From: Escherichia virus TH15
Sequence record: MT446392.1
Direction: 5' to 3' (one strand)
DNA length: 64,000 nt
A program made the position numbers and the translations under genes. Under the pieces are notes generated by a model, which saw only the letters and a program-made list of their open reading frames with translations, was not told the DNA's origin and did not search any database. Shown here piece after piece: positions 32,596 through 40,978 of this stretch. The first letter of the stretch is position 1, and every line of letters begins with the position of its first letter.

Positions 32596-33723
32596 ATGGC
32601 TTTTATTGTATCTATTGCAGGTTCAGCCTCAATGAAAATTGGCGATAGCGCCAACTATACCGCTACTGCATCAGGAGCAGCGGTGGAAGGAACTGTCACA
32701 TATGTATGGACTATTGATGGCGCCTCAAATCCAGAATCAACTAACGTTCTTCGTTATACGGGTACTGCTCCCGCGGGAAAGAAAATTTTAAAAGTAGTCG
32801 CGACTTCCACACCGGCTGAAGGTGAGCCTGAAGTAGCCGAAAATACTTTTGAAGTAAATGTATCTAATAAAACTATGAGTATTTCTTTAGCTTTGGACCC
32901 AGTTTCTGTATCTAAAGAAATTGGCCAATCTCAAGTTGTTACTGCTAACGTAACAGGTGCTCCTTCTGGAGCCACGATTGCTTATGTTTGGAAACGCAAT
33001 TCTAATGTAATCGCAGGTCAAACTGGTAAAACTATTACCGTAACCGAAGCAGCAGAAGCAAATTATACTTTGAACTGTGAAGTTACGGTTACTGCTCCTG
33101 AATATGATTCAGCTACTGCTACTAAAGGCGCGACGGTAACTTTTGCCAAGAAAACAATGTCAGGTGTTTCTGTTGTTTTAACACCGGAATCAATTAATGT
33201 TCCTAAAGATACACCAGCATCATTTAAGGCCGATGTAGTCGGTGCACCGAGTGAAGCATCCGGTGTTTATACATGGAAAAAAGATGGTTCTCCTGTTGAA
33301 GGTTCAACTTCCACTTTGACAATTGATACAAGTACCGAAGGTTCTCAAGTCATTGAAGTTTCGGTTGTTGTTTCTGCGCCCGATTATAAATCAGTAACAG
33401 TGACAACAACAGGTAATGTTACTATAACAGCTAAAGTTGCGCCGGAACCAGAAGGGGAACTTCCATATATTCATCCATTACCAGTTCGCAATTCAGCATA
33501 TATTTGGGCCGGTTGGTGGGTTATGGATGAGATTCAGAAGATGACTCTTGCTGGTAAAGACTGGAAAACCGATGAACCTGATAGTAATTATTATCTTCAT
33601 CGATACACTCTTGCCAAAATGCTTAATGATTATCCAGAGGTTGATGTACAAGAATCTCGCAATGGTCGAATTATTCATCGCACCGCGCTTGACGCTGGTA
33701 TTATCTACGACTACGTATATTAA
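32596..33723 (+). CDS. hoc: highly immunogenic outer capsid protein Hoc
   Basis: 375-aa ORF (T4 Hoc 376 aa); Ig-like repeats and conserved C-terminal capsid-binding region (GWWVMDEIQK...EVDVQESRNG). Confidence 0.85.
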   Translation: MAFIVSIAGSASMKIGDSANYTATASGAAVEGTVTYVWTIDGASNPESTNVLRYTGTAPAGKKILKVVATSTPAEGEPEVAENTFEVNVSNKTMSISLALDPVSVSKEIGQSQVVTANVTGAPSGATIAYVWKRNSNVIAGQTGKTITVTEAAEANYTLNCEVTVTAPEYDSATATKGATVTFAKKTMSGVSVVLTPESINVPKDTPASFKADVVGAPSEASGVYTWKKDGSPVEGSTSTLTIDTSTEGSQVIEVSVVVSAPDYKSVTVTTTGNVTITAKVAPEPEGELPYIHPLPVRNSAYIWAGWWVMDEIQKMTLAGKDWKTDEPDSNYYLHRYTLAKMLNDYPEVDVQESRNGRIIHRTALDAGIIYDYVY

Positions 33724-33753: not shown

Positions 33754-34620
33754 TTACCAAACTAAATCCTTTTTACCTAAAATATATCCGTTTCTTGATT
33801 CCTGTACTTCAATATCAGGATATTTCTCAAGCATTTCTGCTATCTTAGCAAGCTCACATTTGTATTTAAATCTATCGTGCATAGGATTCTTATGCCATTC
33901 AAAGCCTTCTATCAAAGCCTCTAAAATCTCATCATGAACCCACCAGCCAATCCACATATAAACTTTATTTCGACCACCACTTAAATGACTAAGATGCTCA
34001 TACTGATTAAGGTCATGAACATAGATATCTTTACATTCTATAGTAGTAGAAGGAGGAACTAATTGAATGTCAATTAGAGCTGTTGTTTCTTTATATCCAC
34101 CATGACTAAATGCTGTAGTAGATAATGTATAAGTTCCGTAATAAGAATCATCTTCAACAGTAAGACTAAATTGTTCATCAGTTCCTATTTGAATGCCATT
34201 ACGAAGCCAAACACACTTTCTATGAACCCATGTTGGCTCTACTATACACTGAGGAGCAAAATGGACCTGGCCGCCTATAGGAACTTCTATATAAAGTCTA
34301 GTTTTAAACTGTATTGTCGGTTCTCTAAGTTCTTCGCCTATTTCTAATTGAATTCTATTAGTTCTATACATCTCCCCTGTTGACTTAACGCCTAAAAGAG
34401 CGTAATATTCTCCTTCGGCTGGATAACCGACATCCCATAAATTTAGAGTCCATGGGTTTTCAGAATCCAACTTAGGTATAAGAACTACATCTTTATACCA
34501 TGCTACGTGAATATCATCAGGATGTATATTTACAGGCAAAGAAATCTCGGATAAATCAAATGTAATATCTTGACCTATCTGAGCATAATGAGGACCATGC
34601 ATAACGGCATATAATTTCAT
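33754..34620 (-). CDS. Hoc paralog: novel N-terminal region fused to Hoc-type C-terminal capsid-binding domain
   Basis: 288-aa ORF; C-terminal ~65 aa share YMWIGWWVHDEI...YPDIEVQESRNGYI with Hoc; RBS GGAGA overlaps stop of upstream collagen-like gene. Confidence 0.7.
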   Translation of the reverse strand: MKLYAVMHGPHYAQIGQDITFDLSEISLPVNIHPDDIHVAWYKDVVLIPKLDSENPWTLNLWDVGYPAEGEYYALLGVKSTGEMYRTNRIQLEIGEELREPTIQFKTRLYIEVPIGGQVHFAPQCIVEPTWVHRKCVWLRNGIQIGTDEQFSLTVEDDSYYGTYTLSTTAFSHGGYKETTALIDIQLVPPSTTIECKDIYVHDLNQYEHLSHLSGGRNKVYMWIGWWVHDEILEALIEGFEWHKNPMHDRFKYKCELAKIAEMLEKYPDIEVQESRNGYILGKKDLVW

Positions 34621-34629
34621 GGGTTCTCC

Positions 34630-35949
34630 TTAAGATGCAAATATTATAGGTATACGCCCATGATTATTATTTTTAATAACCTGAATATAGATGTCAGAAT
34701 CAACATAATCATTTAAAGACCCGGTTGGAAGCATTTTTAAAGTATACCAAAAACCTGTGGCTTTATCTATAATTTCTGCAGTTGAACCTTCTCGACACTT
34801 ATCAAAAGAAATGTTATCCCATGTTACCCATGAGCTAGTCAGGTTTAAATTATTATCTGACTTGTTTTCTAAGCCAACCGCGTCATAGTTTGTGGTTCTA
34901 CGATAAGAATATGAAGCTGGCAAAGAGTCATTAAATCTTTTGACACTGATATCAAATGTGTTTTTAGTTGTGACTTTATATTTCATAGAAATATTAGTAT
35001 CAGCTAGTTTGACCGTGGCTTCAGCATTAGGAGAAGACATTGAATTAAAGCTTAAAATAATTTCCCAATATTTCTTAGGTTCAAATGGTTTAAGCTTGTC
35101 ATATAATTCCTCTAATTGAGATTCTGTCAAGCTGCCAATATCAAGAGCAGGGCCTTGAGGGCCTTGTGCACCGTCTATACCATTTTTACCAGGGTCGCCT
35201 TTTAATCCTTGCAGGCCTTGTGGTCCTTGAGGGCCATCTGTTCCAGCAGGACCTTGGTCACCTTTATCTCCTTTATCACCCTTGTCTCCTTTTGCGCCAG
35301 CCGATGCCATTATGGCCCAATCGTCATTTGACGGCAACGGCGGAATACCGGTATGAGTCGTAAGACTAAAATAGGTAGCTCCTTGGTACGCTACGGCGTC
35401 ATTTGGTACATACTCAATAGATATATCATATTCACCTTTCCATATTAATCCTGTTGCTCCTGCGGGGCCCGGGTCGCCTTTAGGACCATCTAGACCATTT
35501 TTACCCGGGTCGCCTTTAGGACCTTGAATACCTTGAATACCTTGAGGGCCGGTAGCCCCATCAATGCCGTTAGTTCCATCAGCCCCTTTAGGACCTTGAA
35601 TACCAGGTGCACCATCCATCCCGTGTACACCTGCCAGGCCTTGGGGACCTTGTAGACCATCTATTCCAGCAGGACCTTGTGGTCCTGGGTCACCTTTTAA
35701 TCCTTGTGGGCCTTGAATGCCCTGGATACCTTGGTCGCCTTTTGGGCCTACTGCGCCATCAGAAATTCCTATAAATGTCTTTGCTTCTTCTGAAGTAGCT
35801 TTAGTTAAAAATTCTAAACTCCAATCGGTAGTTGAACTTGTCGTAATAAGGTCTTCTACTTGTTTTGTATTACCTGCCTCTGGATTTCTAATGGTTTTGC
35901 CAGAAAAGTTACCTCTACCATCATGCCCAAACAATCTTTCGTCAGCCAT
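34630..35949 (-). CDS. collagen-like repeat protein with C-terminal globular domain
   Basis: 439-aa ORF; two uninterrupted Gly-X-Y runs (33 and 16 triplets); late promoter and RBS upstream. Confidence 0.75.
35149..35298 (-). repeat. collagen Gly-X-Y coding repeat, block 2 (16 triplets incl. GDKGDKGDK)
   Basis: Same periodicity; encodes [19 protein letters not shown]... Confidence 0.8.
35449..35748 (-). repeat. collagen Gly-X-Y coding repeat, block 1 (33 triplets)
   Basis: Periodic GGN-NNN-NNN codons visible as CCNNNNNNN periodicity on + strand. Confidence 0.8.
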
Positions 35950-36537: not shown

Positions 36538-36634
36538 GGTTCTAGACCCTTTGAGACTATTAATTCCTTTCAGAGAAAGAAAGTATAGTGGGTCTAATTT
36601 ATAATGATATTTATAACATCAAAAGTGAGAGAAT

Positions 36635-37640: not shown

Positions 37641-37668
37641 AAAAAAGGGCCGCAAGGCCCTTATTCTT
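37641..37668. terminator. bidirectional terminator (GGGCCGCAAGGCCC)
   Basis: Hairpin flanked by A-run and T-run between convergent rnlB and the gene 24 paralog. Confidence 0.7.
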
Positions 37669-38944
37669 TTTCCAGTGGTGGAAGTTTAACACCAAGATAA
37701 GAACTCAATTGGCTTTGGTTAGCCATCTTATCCATATCAGCCCCATCAATAATGCGAGCTTCTTTATCGTCTTTAGCAACGGTATAAGGGTTCGCAGTCA
37801 GTGCATAACGAGCTAACAGTGCAACTGTAGGCTGTAAACTTTCAGGGTCAACGATAACCTTGAATTCCCCAACCGAGGTGTCACCCTCATCATCAACTTC
37901 ACTAAGACCTTCCGTATAAGGCGCATAATACAAAGATGCGACCGTCTGACCTTCACCCATATCGGCATTTACGCCAACAATAACATAATCGCATGGGCTA
38001 TTCATATCTGCATAAAGCGGCAAACCGTTCTTCAGAACGCCATAGGCCAATTCATCCTGGTCGTCCTTTTTCTCAACCCAACCAGAAGCTGCTAAAATAG
38101 CTGCACACCGGGAAGAGGCAACTGCATATGTACCAGCGAACGAAGTCTGACGTTGAACTGCGGAATTCATTTCGCACATATAATAATACAGGGTTCGAGC
38201 CCGGTCTTGCGCATTATCATATCTCGGGTCGGTAAGATTCAATACACCTTTTTCAGAAACACCTTGTACCTTGAAGCGGGAACTAACAGTAATAAGGGAT
38301 TGCAGTACGTCCTTATTAATTTCCTCTGCCATTTGAATGCCAAGGATATTATCAATAAAATCTGTTGCGTCGAAACCATTTGCTTCCAGGTCCTGAGCAA
38401 GCTCAACAGTTAAAGAGGTTTTCAGTTTTCTGGATTTGACTTCGGTCTGCCATTTATCGATACGGAAACCGGCTTCAGCAATTTCAGGATGACCCTGTTC
38501 AAATTTATTAGTGAAAGCTGCATCCGACATCATTCTTATATGGCCAGCAGCAATGGCTTCAGAAATAACTTCACCCAAATCAGTTTCAAGGGTCCCAGCA
38601 AAAGGAGAAGCTTCCAAAACTTTGAATACAACGCTTTCGAACTGGAACATATCGCCGACTGCATAAGCTTCGTCTTTATTTGTAAATTCTGGGATATTCT
38701 TACGCTCGAACATGCCAATCTGGCCTGCAAATGTTGCTCCACCAAGATATGTCATTTTATCATCTGGGTTCAGAACACGAACACCATACAACGCTGCAAC
38801 AGGCTGGGTAGTTTTCTGTTCGGCAACGAGTGCTTTAAAAATTCGTTTATTCGTAGCCTGGGTATAAGAAAGCAAATTAGGACGGGCGACCTGGTTGGCC
38901 GCCGTTAATGTTGATTCGTGAATTAGTGCGTTAATCTTTTGCAT
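37661..38944 (-). CDS. capsid vertex protein paralog (gp24-like, divergent copy)
   Basis: 427-aa ORF, roughly 55% identical by eye to the adjacent gp24; starts immediately after gp24 stop (TAAATG) with GAGG RBS inside the upstream gene. Confidence 0.8.
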   Translation of the reverse strand: MQKINALIHESTLTAANQVARPNLLSYTQATNKRIFKALVAEQKTTQPVAALYGVRVLNPDDKMTYLGGATFAGQIGMFERKNIPEFTNKDEAYAVGDMFQFESVVFKVLEASPFAGTLETDLGEVISEAIAAGHIRMMSDAAFTNKFEQGHPEIAEAGFRIDKWQTEVKSRKLKTSLTVELAQDLEANGFDATDFIDNILGIQMAEEINKDVLQSLITVSSRFKVQGVSEKGVLNLTDPRYDNAQDRARTLYYYMCEMNSAVQRQTSFAGTYAVASSRCAAILAASGWVEKKDDQDELAYGVLKNGLPLYADMNSPCDYVIVGVNADMGEGQTVASLYYAPYTEGLSEVDDEGDTSVGEFKVIVDPESLQPTVALLARYALTANPYTVAKDDKEARIIDGADMDKMANQSQLSSYLGVKLPPLEKE

Positions 38945-40225
38945 TTACGCCTCATAAATGATTGGCGGAAGTTTAACACCGAGCAGATAAGACATATTGC
39001 TCTGGCCGGCCATTAAATCCATATTAGTTGCATCGATAATACGAGCTTCTTTGTCGTCTTTAGCAACGGTGTAAGGGTTAGCTGAAAGTGCATATCGAAC
39101 CATCAGGGAGATAGATGGCTGCAAGCTGTCTGGGTCCACAATGACCTTAAATGCACCTACGTGTTCTTCATCATCTAAGTCCAGGCCTTCGGTATAAGGA
39201 GCATAGAAGATTGAGCCTACGACTTCGTTTCCGCCATAATTTTCTTTAACGCCAACGGTTACATAATCTAATGGACTGTTAACATCACAGAATACAGGAA
39301 GACCATTAATCAAATAACCATACGCGGTTTCCGGGAGCCATTGTTCATCTTCAGGTTTATGTTTCAACCAACCGGAACCGGCGAGCATCGCGGCCACACG
39401 ACTTGAGGCAACAACGAATGTACCAGAGTAAGATGTAGTTTTCTGAATTTCAGAGTTCATTTCGCACACCAGTTCGTACAGTTTACGTGCGCCTTCTGGA
39501 GCTGAATCATATGTCAAATCGATGAAACCTTTATCAGAAACGCCAGTGACTTTATAACGCTTGGAAACGGTAATCAGAGACTGAAGAACATCTTTGTTAA
39601 TTTCATCTGCCATAGTAGTTGCAAGCAGGTCTTCCAGGAAAGCAGGAGCATTAAAACCGTTTGCTTCCATATCCTGTGCAAGTTCAACAGTCAGTGCAGT
39701 TTTCAATTTACGGGATTTAACAGGAGCATTCCATTTATTAACCTGGAATACAGCGTTACTAATTTCAACATCACCAGCTTCAAATTTCTCGGTGTGTGCA
39801 GCATCAGGAACTAAACGAATAGTCGATGCAATAAGACCTTCTTGCAGAACATCAGATAATACTGTTTCTGTAGTCGTTGCAAATGGATTATCCACCAGAG
39901 CTTTGTAAACGATATTTTGATATTTTACATATTCGCCTTTAGCAACAGGTTGAGTAGCTGTAGCTAATTCTGGAATAGTTGTACGGTCTTTAGAACCGAC
40001 TTCACCACCATAAGTAGCACCAGTCTGGAAACTGAATTCATTATCAGGAGTAAGATATTTAACACCGTACAGCGCAGCAACAGGCTGGTTAGTACGTTGT
40101 TCAGCGATGATATCGCGGTAAATCAATTTAGTTGTAGCGCGGGTCAAAGCAACAAGATTCGGGCGGCCTAATGAGTTGCTGGATGTAGTAGTTGACTCGC
40201 GCAGCAGTTCGTTAATCTTTGCCAT
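38945..40225 (-). CDS. 24: capsid vertex protein gp24
   Basis: 426-aa ORF (T4 gp24 427 aa); N-terminus MAKINELLRESTTT matches T4 gp24 as recalled. Confidence 0.9.
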   Translation of the reverse strand: MAKINELLRESTTTSSNSLGRPNLVALTRATTKLIYRDIIAEQRTNQPVAALYGVKYLTPDNEFSFQTGATYGGEVGSKDRTTIPELATATQPVAKGEYVKYQNIVYKALVDNPFATTTETVLSDVLQEGLIASTIRLVPDAAHTEKFEAGDVEISNAVFQVNKWNAPVKSRKLKTALTVELAQDMEANGFNAPAFLEDLLATTMADEINKDVLQSLITVSKRYKVTGVSDKGFIDLTYDSAPEGARKLYELVCEMNSEIQKTTSYSGTFVVASSRVAAMLAGSGWLKHKPEDEQWLPETAYGYLINGLPVFCDVNSPLDYVTVGVKENYGGNEVVGSIFYAPYTEGLDLDDEEHVGAFKVIVDPDSLQPSISLMVRYALSANPYTVAKDDKEARIIDATNMDLMAGQSNMSYLLGVKLPPIIYEA

Positions 40226-40250: not shown

Positions 40251-40258
40251 TATTTATA
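40251..40258 (-). promoter_or_regulatory. late promoter TATAAATA for gene 24
   Basis: Exact TATAAATA on - strand 26 nt upstream of ATG. Confidence 0.5.
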
Positions 40259-40318: not shown

Positions 40319-40978
40319 ATGCATTATTTAATTTACAAAATAACTAACTTGATAAATCATAAAATTTATATTGGGGCGCACGCCACAGAAAACGTGTATG
40401 ACTCCTATATGGGGTCGGGAGTCAACATTGTCAAATCCATCAAAAAACATGGTATTAAGAACTTTAAAAAAGAAATTTTGTTTGTTTTTGATACTTCATA
40501 TGAAATGTATGAGAAAGAAGCTGAACTTGTTAATGAACAATTTGTGCTTAGAGCTGATACATACAATGCAGCTATTGGCGGCAAGGGAAATCCAATTATT
40601 GTTAAACTACAAGACCCTTCATACAGAAAAATGATTTCAGAAAAGACAAAAGCAGGTATGACCGTAGAAGTAAAGCGGAAAATATCAATAGCAAAAACAG
40701 GAGTCAAACAGTCACAAGAGCTTATTGATAAACGTACGGCGGGTGTCAAAAAATATTTAGAAACACACCAGCATCACAACAAAAATAAACCAATAAGCGA
40801 TAGCCACCGCAAAGCAATTTCAGAAAAATTAAAAGGGATTAAAAAACTTATTAAGATTTCAATCAAAGGTAAGACTTTTGATAACCCAGATTTTGCTGCT
40901 GAACATTTTGGCGTTTCTCCAAAAACAATACGCAATTGGATAAATTCAGATAAACACCCAGACTGCTTCAAACAATAA
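40319..40978 (+). CDS. segD: GIY-YIG homing endonuclease, SegD-like
   Basis: 219-aa ORF; [25 protein letters not shown] motif, repeated K..G...S.E linker modules, C-terminal HTH-like; between genes 23 and 24 like T4 segD. Confidence 0.78.

What the first reader, a model, noticed from the sequence alone, without database searches (positions are those of the whole stretch)
37661..40225. Tandem duplication of the capsid vertex gene 24
Two adjacent - strand ORFs (426 and 427 aa) are both gp24-like and collinear over their full length, at very roughly 55% identity by eye. The second starts on the stop of the first (TAAATG) with its RBS inside the upstream gene. T4, as I recall it, carries a single gene 24, so this looks like an old duplication with both copies kept. 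Two vertex paralogs could give mixed or alternative pentamers.
Basis: partly seen in the sequence, partly recalled or inferred. Interest (0 to 1): 0.5.

Follow-up and report, generated by a model that had tools for sequence, protein, structure and literature searches.

The report
Known pair of capsid vertex genes
This T4-like phage carries two adjacent, intact and co-expressed copies of the capsid corner (vertex) protein gene, an old gene pair already annotated and published for its relatives, though what the second copy does has not been tested.

Summary
Window 38945-40225(-) encodes 426 aa and 37661-38944(-) encodes 427 aa. Both are full-length gp24-type vertex proteins, 55% identical, joined by TAAATG with a GAGG ribosome-binding site inside the upstream gene.

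The window is a Gaprivervirus, 95.9% nt identical to phage VR7. Public records already annotate the pair: VR7 24(1)/24(2), JS98 and IME08 24a/24b, VR5/20/25/26 and CGG4-1 "vertex protein I/II". [quoted passage not shown]

What I add:
- Copy 1 is the T4 gp24 orthologue (71% identity).
- Copy 2 belongs to a separate clade (bootstrap 92-96) that branches outside the conventional Tevenvirinae gp24s, so the split is ancient.
- In 25 of 25 further loci, copy 2 sits directly downstream of a conventional gp24 and never occurs alone.
- The two copies co-diverge (Mantel r=0.80).
- Both are under strong purifying selection (dN/dS about 0.03-0.08) and keep the prohead-protease site.
- One late promoter motif and one terminator frame both genes.

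Most likely both are processed vertex subunits, with copy 2 an accessory partner. How they share the 11 vertices is unknown. This is ordinary as a discovery, with a modest open structural question.

The parts
38945..40225 (-). gene 24(1): conventional capsid vertex protein, orthologue of T4 gp24 (426 aa)
   Evidence: 71% identity to T4 gp24. 660 bits to PDB 1YUE/7VS5 gp24. PF07068 at 333 bits. Falls in the clade with T4, Mosigvirus, CC31 and others. dN/dS 0.03-0.08. N-terminus MAKINELLRE|S keeps the gp21 cleavage motif.
37661..38944 (-). gene 24(2): second vertex-protein paralogue, member of a distinct ancient clade (427 aa)
   Evidence: 55% identity to 24(1) and 56% to T4 gp24. 498 bits to 1YUE. 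The AF2 model matches mature T4 gp24* (5vf3_a) at TM 0.82/0.85, against 0.57-0.61 for gp23*. The clade has bootstrap 92-96. dN/dS 0.04-0.06. N-terminus MQKINALIHE|S keeps the [LI]-x-E motif.
38945..38953 (-). translational-coupling junction: GAGG ribosome-binding site (38953-38950) inside 24(1), then TAA stop directly followed by the ATG of 24(2)
   Evidence: Sequence read. Abutting or overlapping stop/start is also conserved in distant pair-bearing genomes.
40251..40258 (-). T4-type late promoter motif TATAAATA, 25 nt upstream of the 24(1) ATG; the only such motif serving both genes
   Evidence: 19 matches in the window against 4.6 expected. None lies on the - strand between 40225 and 37661.
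37645..37662 (.). GC-rich hairpin with T-runs on both strands (bidirectional terminator-like site) directly after the 24(2) stop, shared with convergent rnlB
   Evidence: This is a consensus scan only.

Best explanation
The locus is a conserved two-gene late operon encoding two paralogous capsid vertex (penton) proteins.

Shown:
- 24(1) is the orthologue of T4 gp24.
- 24(2) belongs to a separate, old paralogue clade found in Gaprivervirus, Dhakavirus, Gelderlandvirus, Roskildevirus, Marfavirus and related uncultured phages.
- 24(2) always lies immediately downstream of a conventional gene 24, abutting it.
- In this window one late promoter motif precedes the pair and one terminator-like hairpin follows it.
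- Both copies are intact, evolve under strong purifying selection, keep the family's invariant residues and the N-terminal [L/I]-x-E|S prohead-protease site, and show no gene conversion between them.
- The copy-2 model has the gp24 fold.

Inferred:
- Both proteins are made late in similar amounts.
- Both are built into the prohead shell as gp24-type subunits at the non-portal fivefold vertices and are trimmed by gp21.
- Copy 1 is the indispensable penton protein. It is never lost, whereas copy 2 is absent from T4 and many other lineages.
- Copy 2 is an accessory, non-redundant partner that needs copy 1, since it is never found alone.

Whether the two form separate homopentamers at different vertex classes of the prolate head or mixed pentamers cannot be decided from sequence.
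For: - Identity and collinearity.
- Family and fold.
- Operon signals.
- Orthology of copy 1 and the separate copy-2 clade.
- Rare-change support that copy 2 lies outside conventional gp24. It keeps the short ancestral loop at T4 positions 288-300. It shares outgroup residues at T4 positions 26, 32, 56 and 267, where all conventional Tevenvirinae gp24s are derived.
- Co-divergence over 13 genome pairs: Mantel r=0.80, p=1e-4. The within-genome c1-c2 distance is constant at 0.62-0.73 and exceeds the largest c1-c1 distance of 0.51.
- Purifying selection: dN/dS for c1 0.03-0.08, c2 0.04-0.06, gp23 0.03. Copy 2 dN is below copy 1 dN in all comparisons beyond the near-identical window-VR7 pair.
- Synteny: 25 of 25 further loci with a copy-2-type gene have a conventional gp24 directly upstream. 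The 8 conventional-only loci are single copy.
- Protease motif: conserved in all copy-2 sequences inspected. T4 gp24 is cut after residue 10 (PMC9958956; mature chains start at residue 11).
- No gene conversion: 60% nt identity, 41% at third positions, longest exact run 17 nt.
Against: - I found no virion proteomics, genetics or structure for any phage with the pair, so incorporation of copy 2 into vertices is inferred only.
- The PDB holds only T4 gp24.
- The basal placement of the copy-2 clade has weak bootstrap (29-48%). It rests on neighbour-joining trees plus a few indel and residue characters, not on maximum-likelihood analysis.
- Two genomes (L013, L015) have discordant c1 and c2 distances, showing some recombination.
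- Promoter and terminator are motif matches only.
- The AF2 model has moderate confidence (mean pLDDT 70.6).
Confidence: 0.7

Rival explanations
1. Copy 2 is a xenologue rather than the product of an in-situ duplication. A diverged gp24 gene from an unsampled T4-like lineage, sister to Tevenvirinae, was inserted next to the resident gene 24 by recombination. It then spread as a cassette among enterobacterial T4-like phages.
For: - Copy 2 branches outside the conventional Tevenvirinae gp24s and shares outgroup character states.
- The distribution is patchy, with single-copy T4, Mosigvirus, Karamvirus and others nested among pair-bearing lineages.
- c1 and c2 distances are discordant in L013 and L015.
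Against: - No genome with a copy-2-type gene as its only gp24 was found (0 of 25 further loci).
- Order, orientation and abutment are identical everywhere.
- The c1 and c2 distance matrices correlate strongly (r=0.80), as expected for long joint vertical descent.
- GC and GC3 of the two copies are alike.
Confidence: 0.25
2. Copy 2 has left the vertex role. It would act as a non-virion or minor-site protein. Examples are an assembly or nucleation factor, a trigger of gp21 activation, a subunit at special shell positions, or a decoy for host systems that sense capsid proteins.
For: - The fixed differences between the clades cluster in the N-arm. Six of the 12 type-II sites lie in residues 26-57.
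- Copy 2 is dispensable in many lineages.
- gp24 attachment is reported to trigger protease activation in T4 (PMC9958956), so a split of roles is conceivable.
Against: - 130 family-conserved positions are shared with conventional gp24.
- The full gp24* fold is predicted.
- The protease site and the length are conserved.
- Late co-expression with copy 1 is indicated by the shared promoter motif.
- No domain has been gained or lost.
Confidence: 0.12
3. Copy 2 is a redundant or decaying duplicate with no function of its own.
For: T4 and most relatives manage with one gp24. In T4, gp23 bypass mutations can even replace gp24 (PMC9958956).
Against: - dN/dS is 0.04-0.06, and copy 2 evolves slightly more slowly than copy 1.
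- The gene is intact in every genome examined, across at least five genera.
- The divergence is ancient and shows no decay.
Confidence: 0.03

Closest known systems
Bacteriophage T4 gp24 capsid vertex protein (PDB 1YUE, 5VF3, 7VRT/7VS5, 8GMO)
   Same: - Same Pfam family, length (about 427 aa), HK97-type fold with insertion domain, and 10-residue N-terminal propeptide motif.
- Same position after gene 23 in the late head cluster.
- Copy 1 is 71% identical and copy 2 is 56% identical.
   Different: T4 has one such gene. Here a second, anciently diverged paralogue follows it in the same operon. Nothing is known about where copy 2 sits in the shell.
[quoted passage not shown]
   Same: This is the same feature. 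The window region is 95.9% nt identical to VR7 across both genes. The same order and abutment are seen in all of these phages.
   Different: Only strain-level differences. The window has a SegD-like homing endonuclease between genes 23 and 24(1), which VR7 lacks.
The gp23 to gp24 duplication itself (vertex protein derived from the major capsid protein)
   Same: A second round of the same process: duplication or divergence of an HK97-fold shell protein followed by retention (PMC9958956 and PMC10580926).
   Different: gp23 and gp24 are about 21-25% identical and have proven distinct positions, hexamers versus pentamers. 24(1) and 24(2) are 55% identical, and a division of labour has not been shown.

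Membership tests
gp24-type capsid vertex protein (Pfam PF07068, T4 gp23/gp24 family) | Full-length match to PF07068 above the gathering score | tested here: met
   333.2 and 328.5 bits against a cut-off of 24.4, covering model positions 3-376 of 376. PHROG 138 matches at 443 and 413 bits.
gp24-type capsid vertex protein (Pfam PF07068, T4 gp23/gp24 family) | Closer to gp24 than to gp23, with gp24 length and no 65-residue gp23 propeptide | tested here: met
   Identity to T4 gp24 is 71% for copy 1 and 56% for copy 2, against 25-26% to gp23. PDB gp24 scores 660 and 498 bits, against 48-52 bits for gp23.
gp24-type capsid vertex protein (Pfam PF07068, T4 gp23/gp24 family) | HK97-type fold as in mature gp24* | tested here: met
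   The copy-2 AF2 model (pLDDT 70.6) matches 5vf3_a gp24* at TM 0.82/0.85, E=7e-49. gp23* chains give TM 0.57-0.61. Copy 1 was not modelled; its fold is inferred from 71% identity.
gp24-type capsid vertex protein (Pfam PF07068, T4 gp23/gp24 family) | N-terminal 10-residue propeptide removed by prohead protease gp21 at [L/I]-x-E| | tested here: inconclusive
   The motif is present at residues 8-10 in both copies and in all copy-2 homologues aligned. E10 and S11 are invariant in a 63-sequence alignment. Actual cleavage cannot be tested here.
gp24-type capsid vertex protein (Pfam PF07068, T4 gp23/gp24 family) | Late gene directly after gene 23 in the head morphogenesis cluster | tested here: met
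   The gene order is 20-67-68-21-22-23-(segD)-24(1)-24(2). The TATAAATA motif lies at 40258-40251.
gp24-type capsid vertex protein (Pfam PF07068, T4 gp23/gp24 family) | Forms the pentamers of the 11 non-portal vertices in the virion | not testable with these tools
   Needs virion proteomics or cryo-EM. No solved structure of a copy-2-type protein exists.
Recent in-situ tandem duplication | The two copies are each other's closest relatives | tested here: not met
   Copy 1 is closer to T4 gp24 (71%) than to copy 2 (56%). Copy 2 forms its own clade outside the bs-78 clade that holds every copy-1 partner and T4. Indel and residue characters agree.
Recent in-situ tandem duplication | Adjacent, same strand, collinear, no intervening gene | tested here: met
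   The same holds in 25 of 25 other loci.

The most novel reading that the evidence does not exclude
gp24(2) may be a second, specialised penton protein rather than a spare copy. The prolate head of these phages would then have two chemically distinct classes of non-portal vertices. One possible split is the six vertices of the distal cap against the five of the portal-proximal ring, about 30 and 25 subunits. That ratio would fit roughly equal coupled expression. One vertex class could serve as a docking site for extra head decorations. In several lineages a collagen-like fibre gene and a short Hoc-like gene lie directly downstream of 24(2). To my knowledge this would be the first HK97-fold phage capsid shown to use two different penton proteins at ordinary vertices.
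Probability: 0.25. Interest if true: 0.6.

Novelty: already known. Interest (0 to 1): 0.3.

Why it matters
As a discovery it does not matter much. The gene pair has been in GenBank since the JS98 record and is described in print for S16 and Melville.

What remains open is biological. A second vertex protein has been kept under strong selection across at least five genera, always behind the canonical gene and never alone, yet nobody appears to have shown where it goes in the capsid. T4 is the reference system for prolate-head assembly and a platform for vaccine display. Finding position-specific pentons would therefore bear on how vertex identity, protease triggering and head stability are set. 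The question could be addressed with existing phages such as VR7, JS98 and S16.

Tried and rejected
- **Literature.** Nine full-text searches found no paper in the held library on the function, proteomics or structure of the second copy. Only the Melville announcement mentions the duplication. The JS98 genome paper (PMC2168658) is not held. My recollection that it notes the duplication is unverified. Two transposon-mutagenesis preprints that matched 'gp24' and 'paralog' concern jumbo phages and are irrelevant.
- **Jiaodavirus as source of copy 2.** Klebsiella phage JD18 has a single gp24 that is 63% identical to copy 2, more than copy 1 is. I rejected it as the source. JD18 is simply a short-branch conventional gp24 (65-69% to copy 1 and T4). 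It groups with conventional sequences and sides with copy 1 at 15 of 23 diagnostic sites.
- **Obligate link to the neighbouring genes.** I tested whether copy 2 always comes with the collagen-like fibre and short Hoc-like genes. This was rejected as a rule. The link is present in the window, VR7, JS10, Cronus, L011, L012 and L016. It is absent in S16, PWKp16/L017, L013 and L015. The fibre also occurs in Aeromonas phages.
- **Recent gene conversion between the copies.** None was found.
- **Decay of one copy.** Rejected by dN/dS.
- **Methods not available.** No maximum-likelihood tree program and no multimer structure prediction were available. I used neighbour-joining with bootstrap plus character analysis.

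Full report
**Observation.** BLASTP aligns them end to end at 55% identity and 75% positives, E=2e-174. The junction reads GAGGCGTAAATG, so the stop codon of the first gene is followed directly by the ATG of the second. The GAGG ribosome-binding site lies inside the upstream gene. Both proteins match Pfam PF07068 over the whole model at 333 and 328 bits, and PHROG 138. They are only 28-29% identical to the window's gp23 over partial alignments.

**What the window is.** The 2.6-kb region is 95.9% identical at nucleotide level to Escherichia phage vB_EcoM_VR7 (Gaprivervirus). It is 82-94% identical to other Gaprivervirus and Dhakavirus genomes. The surrounding order on the minus strand is 20, 67, 68, 21, 22, 23, then 24(1) and 24(2). 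Convergent rnlB, 24.2 and 24.3 follow, then a collagen-like gene, a short Hoc-like gene, hoc and inh.

**Is it known?** Yes.
- VR7's GenBank record names the genes 24(1) and 24(2), "capsid vertex protein".
- VR5/20/25/26 use "capsid vertex protein I/II". IME08 and the original JS98 record use 24a/24b. CGG4-1 uses "head vertex protein I/II". S16 lists gp108 and gp109.
- A tblastn of copy 2 against 50,697 phage records found 1,417 records with a gp24 and 1,535 places. So roughly 118 records carry two copies, while T4, T6, RB69 and most others carry one.
- Pair-bearing genera confirmed here are Gaprivervirus, Dhakavirus, Gelderlandvirus, Roskildevirus (Erwinia phage Cronus) and Marfavirus (Klebsiella phage PWKp16).

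**Which copy is which.**
- Copy 1 is the orthologue of T4 gp24: 71% identity and 660 bits to PDB 1YUE.
- Copy 2 is equally distant from copy 1, T4 and almost every other conventional gp24 (54-59% identity, 498 bits to 1YUE).
- I built neighbour-joining trees with bootstrap from 120 database homologues plus reference sequences. The copy-2-type proteins form one clade (bootstrap 92-96).
- All copy-1 partners fall with T4, Mosigvirus, CC31, Merlin and PEi20 in another clade (bootstrap 78).
- With Krischvirus, Tulanevirus, Pseudotevenvirus, Slopekvirus and Aeh1 gp24 as nearer outgroups, the copy-2 clade branches at the base of the Tevenvirinae gp24 radiation. That exact position has weak support (29-48%).

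**Rare characters agree with the tree.**
- Copy 2 keeps the short loop at T4 positions 288-300 that Acinetobacter phages and the outgroups have. The T4/copy-1 clade has a derived insertion there.
- At T4 positions 26, 32, 56 and 267, copy 2 shares the outgroup residue while the conventional Tevenvirinae clades carry a derived one (100% conserved at 32 and 267, 84-100% at 26 and 56).
- Of 23 fixed differences between the clades, the outgroups side with copy 2 at 7, with copy 1 at 9, and with neither at 7. That pattern fits a deep split. It does not fit a recently duplicated, fast-evolving copy.

**Co-inheritance.**
- For 13 genomes where both copies could be paired, the copy-1 and copy-2 distance matrices correlate strongly (Mantel r=0.80, p=1e-4). 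Several of these pairs were verified on the same contig.
- The within-genome c1-c2 distance is constant (0.62-0.73) and larger than any c1-c1 distance (0.51 at most).
- Two genomes, L013 and L015, are discordant, indicating some recombination.
- In 25 of 25 further loci with a copy-2-type gene, a conventional gp24 lies immediately upstream on the same strand. Eight conventional-only loci are single copy (with 39-42, 62, 63, 82-84).
- Copy 2 is therefore never seen alone, and copy 1 is never the one lost.
- Single-copy lineages such as T4 nest among pair-bearing ones. So either copy 2 was lost repeatedly, or the pair or cassette moved between lineages. I cannot separate these two scenarios.

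**Are both functional?**
- Nei-Gojobori estimates on unsaturated orthologous pairs give dN/dS of 0.03-0.08 for copy 1 and 0.04-0.06 for copy 2. gp23 gives 0.03 in the one unsaturated comparison (window-VR7).
- Copy 2 dN is lower than copy 1 dN in all comparisons beyond the near-identical window-VR7 pair.
- 130 positions are at least 90% conserved and identical in both clades.
- The two window genes are 60% identical in nucleotides, 41% at third positions, with a longest exact run of 17 nt. There is thus no recent gene conversion. Their GC and GC3 values are alike.
- Both copies, and all copy-2 homologues inspected, keep [L/I]-x-E followed by S at residues 8-11. This is where T4 gp24 is cut by the prohead protease (PMC9958956). 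Mature PDB chains start at residue 11.
- An AlphaFold2 model of copy 2 (mean pLDDT 70.6) matches mature T4 gp24* in the capsid (5vf3_a) at TM 0.82/0.85. gp23* chains give only 0.57-0.61.

**Expression signals.** A T4-type late promoter motif, TATAAATA, lies at 40258-40251, 25 nt before the 24(1) start. No other such motif occurs on that strand before the end of 24(2). A GC-rich hairpin with T-runs on both strands lies at 37645-37662, right after the 24(2) stop. Together with the stop-start junction, this suggests one bicistronic late mRNA with translational coupling. These are motif-level inferences only.

**Mechanism.** I commit, at about 0.7 confidence, to the following.
- Both proteins are late, protease-processed gp24-type shell subunits that occupy non-portal fivefold vertices.
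- Copy 1 is the indispensable penton protein.
- Copy 2 is an accessory, non-redundant partner that cannot stand alone.

The 12 clade-defining substitutions are concentrated in the N-arm, six of them in residues 26-57. In T4 this segment moves to the outer surface on expansion and contacts neighbouring subunits (PMC9958956). That hints at altered inter-subunit contacts but proves nothing. Sequence alone cannot tell whether the copies form class-specific homopentamers or mixed pentamers.

**Rivals.**
- Ancient acquisition instead of in-situ duplication (about 0.25). This concerns the origin and is compatible with the functional model.
- A non-vertex role for copy 2 (about 0.12).
- A redundant or decaying copy (about 0.03, contradicted by the selection data).

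**Verdict.** My additions are the depth of the split, the strict c1-then-c2 arrangement, the asymmetric loss pattern, the selection data and the operon signals. These sharpen an open but modest structural question. Interest 0.3; novelty: already known.

Noticed in passing
window 33754-34620 (-), compared with hoc at 32596-33723 (+): A second, short Hoc-like protein (288 aa). Its C-terminal ~70 residues are 42% identical to the capsid-binding C-terminal domain of the canonical Hoc encoded next to it. VR7 annotates its counterpart as 'similar to Hoc'. Second Hoc-like proteins have been described for phages Muldoon and PG7 (PMC10385173).
   Followed up: partly
window 34630-35949 (-); late promoter motif at 35992-35985 (-): A collagen-like (GXY repeat) 439-aa protein with a conserved N-terminus ([13 protein letters not shown]) and its own TATAAATA motif. 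It is hypervariable: only 31% identity over 70% of its length to VR7 ORF196w, although the adjacent gene 24 region is 95.9% nt identical to VR7. The best partial hit is 74% over the N-terminal half, to Salmonella phage ABTNLsp5. It is often annotated 'tail fiber protein'; its location in the virion is unknown.
   Followed up: partly
L011 2676-4506, L012 6326-7841, L016 4890-6427, L018 4827-6342: In Erwinia phage Cronus and related uncultured phages, homologues of the collagen-like or fibre protein and of the short Hoc-like protein lie directly downstream of 24(2) and are co-oriented. This gives a four-gene block: 24(1), 24(2), fibre, Hoc-like. The association is not obligate. It is absent in S16, PWKp16, L013 and L015.
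   Followed up: partly
window 40319-40978 (+): A GIY-YIG homing endonuclease between genes 23 and 24(1). It is 72% identical to T4 SegD, which sits at the same site in T4. VR7 lacks it and has a small ORF (ORF190c) there instead.
   Followed up: yes
window 37661-40225 compared with L022 (contig length 170822, as VR25) and L036 (contig length 170336, as VR20): The window's copy 1 protein is about 100% identical to the VR25-length contig but 96% to the VR20-length one. Its copy 2 is 99% identical to the VR20-length contig and 98% to the VR25-length one. This suggests recent recombination among Gapriverviruses with a breakpoint in or near the gene pair.
   Followed up: no
window 36608-36615 (-): Another TATAAATA late-promoter motif on the minus strand, just before the start of the plus-strand rnlB gene. 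It points into the antisense of the 24.2/24.3 block, toward the collagen-like gene. Its function, if any, is unknown.
   Followed up: no
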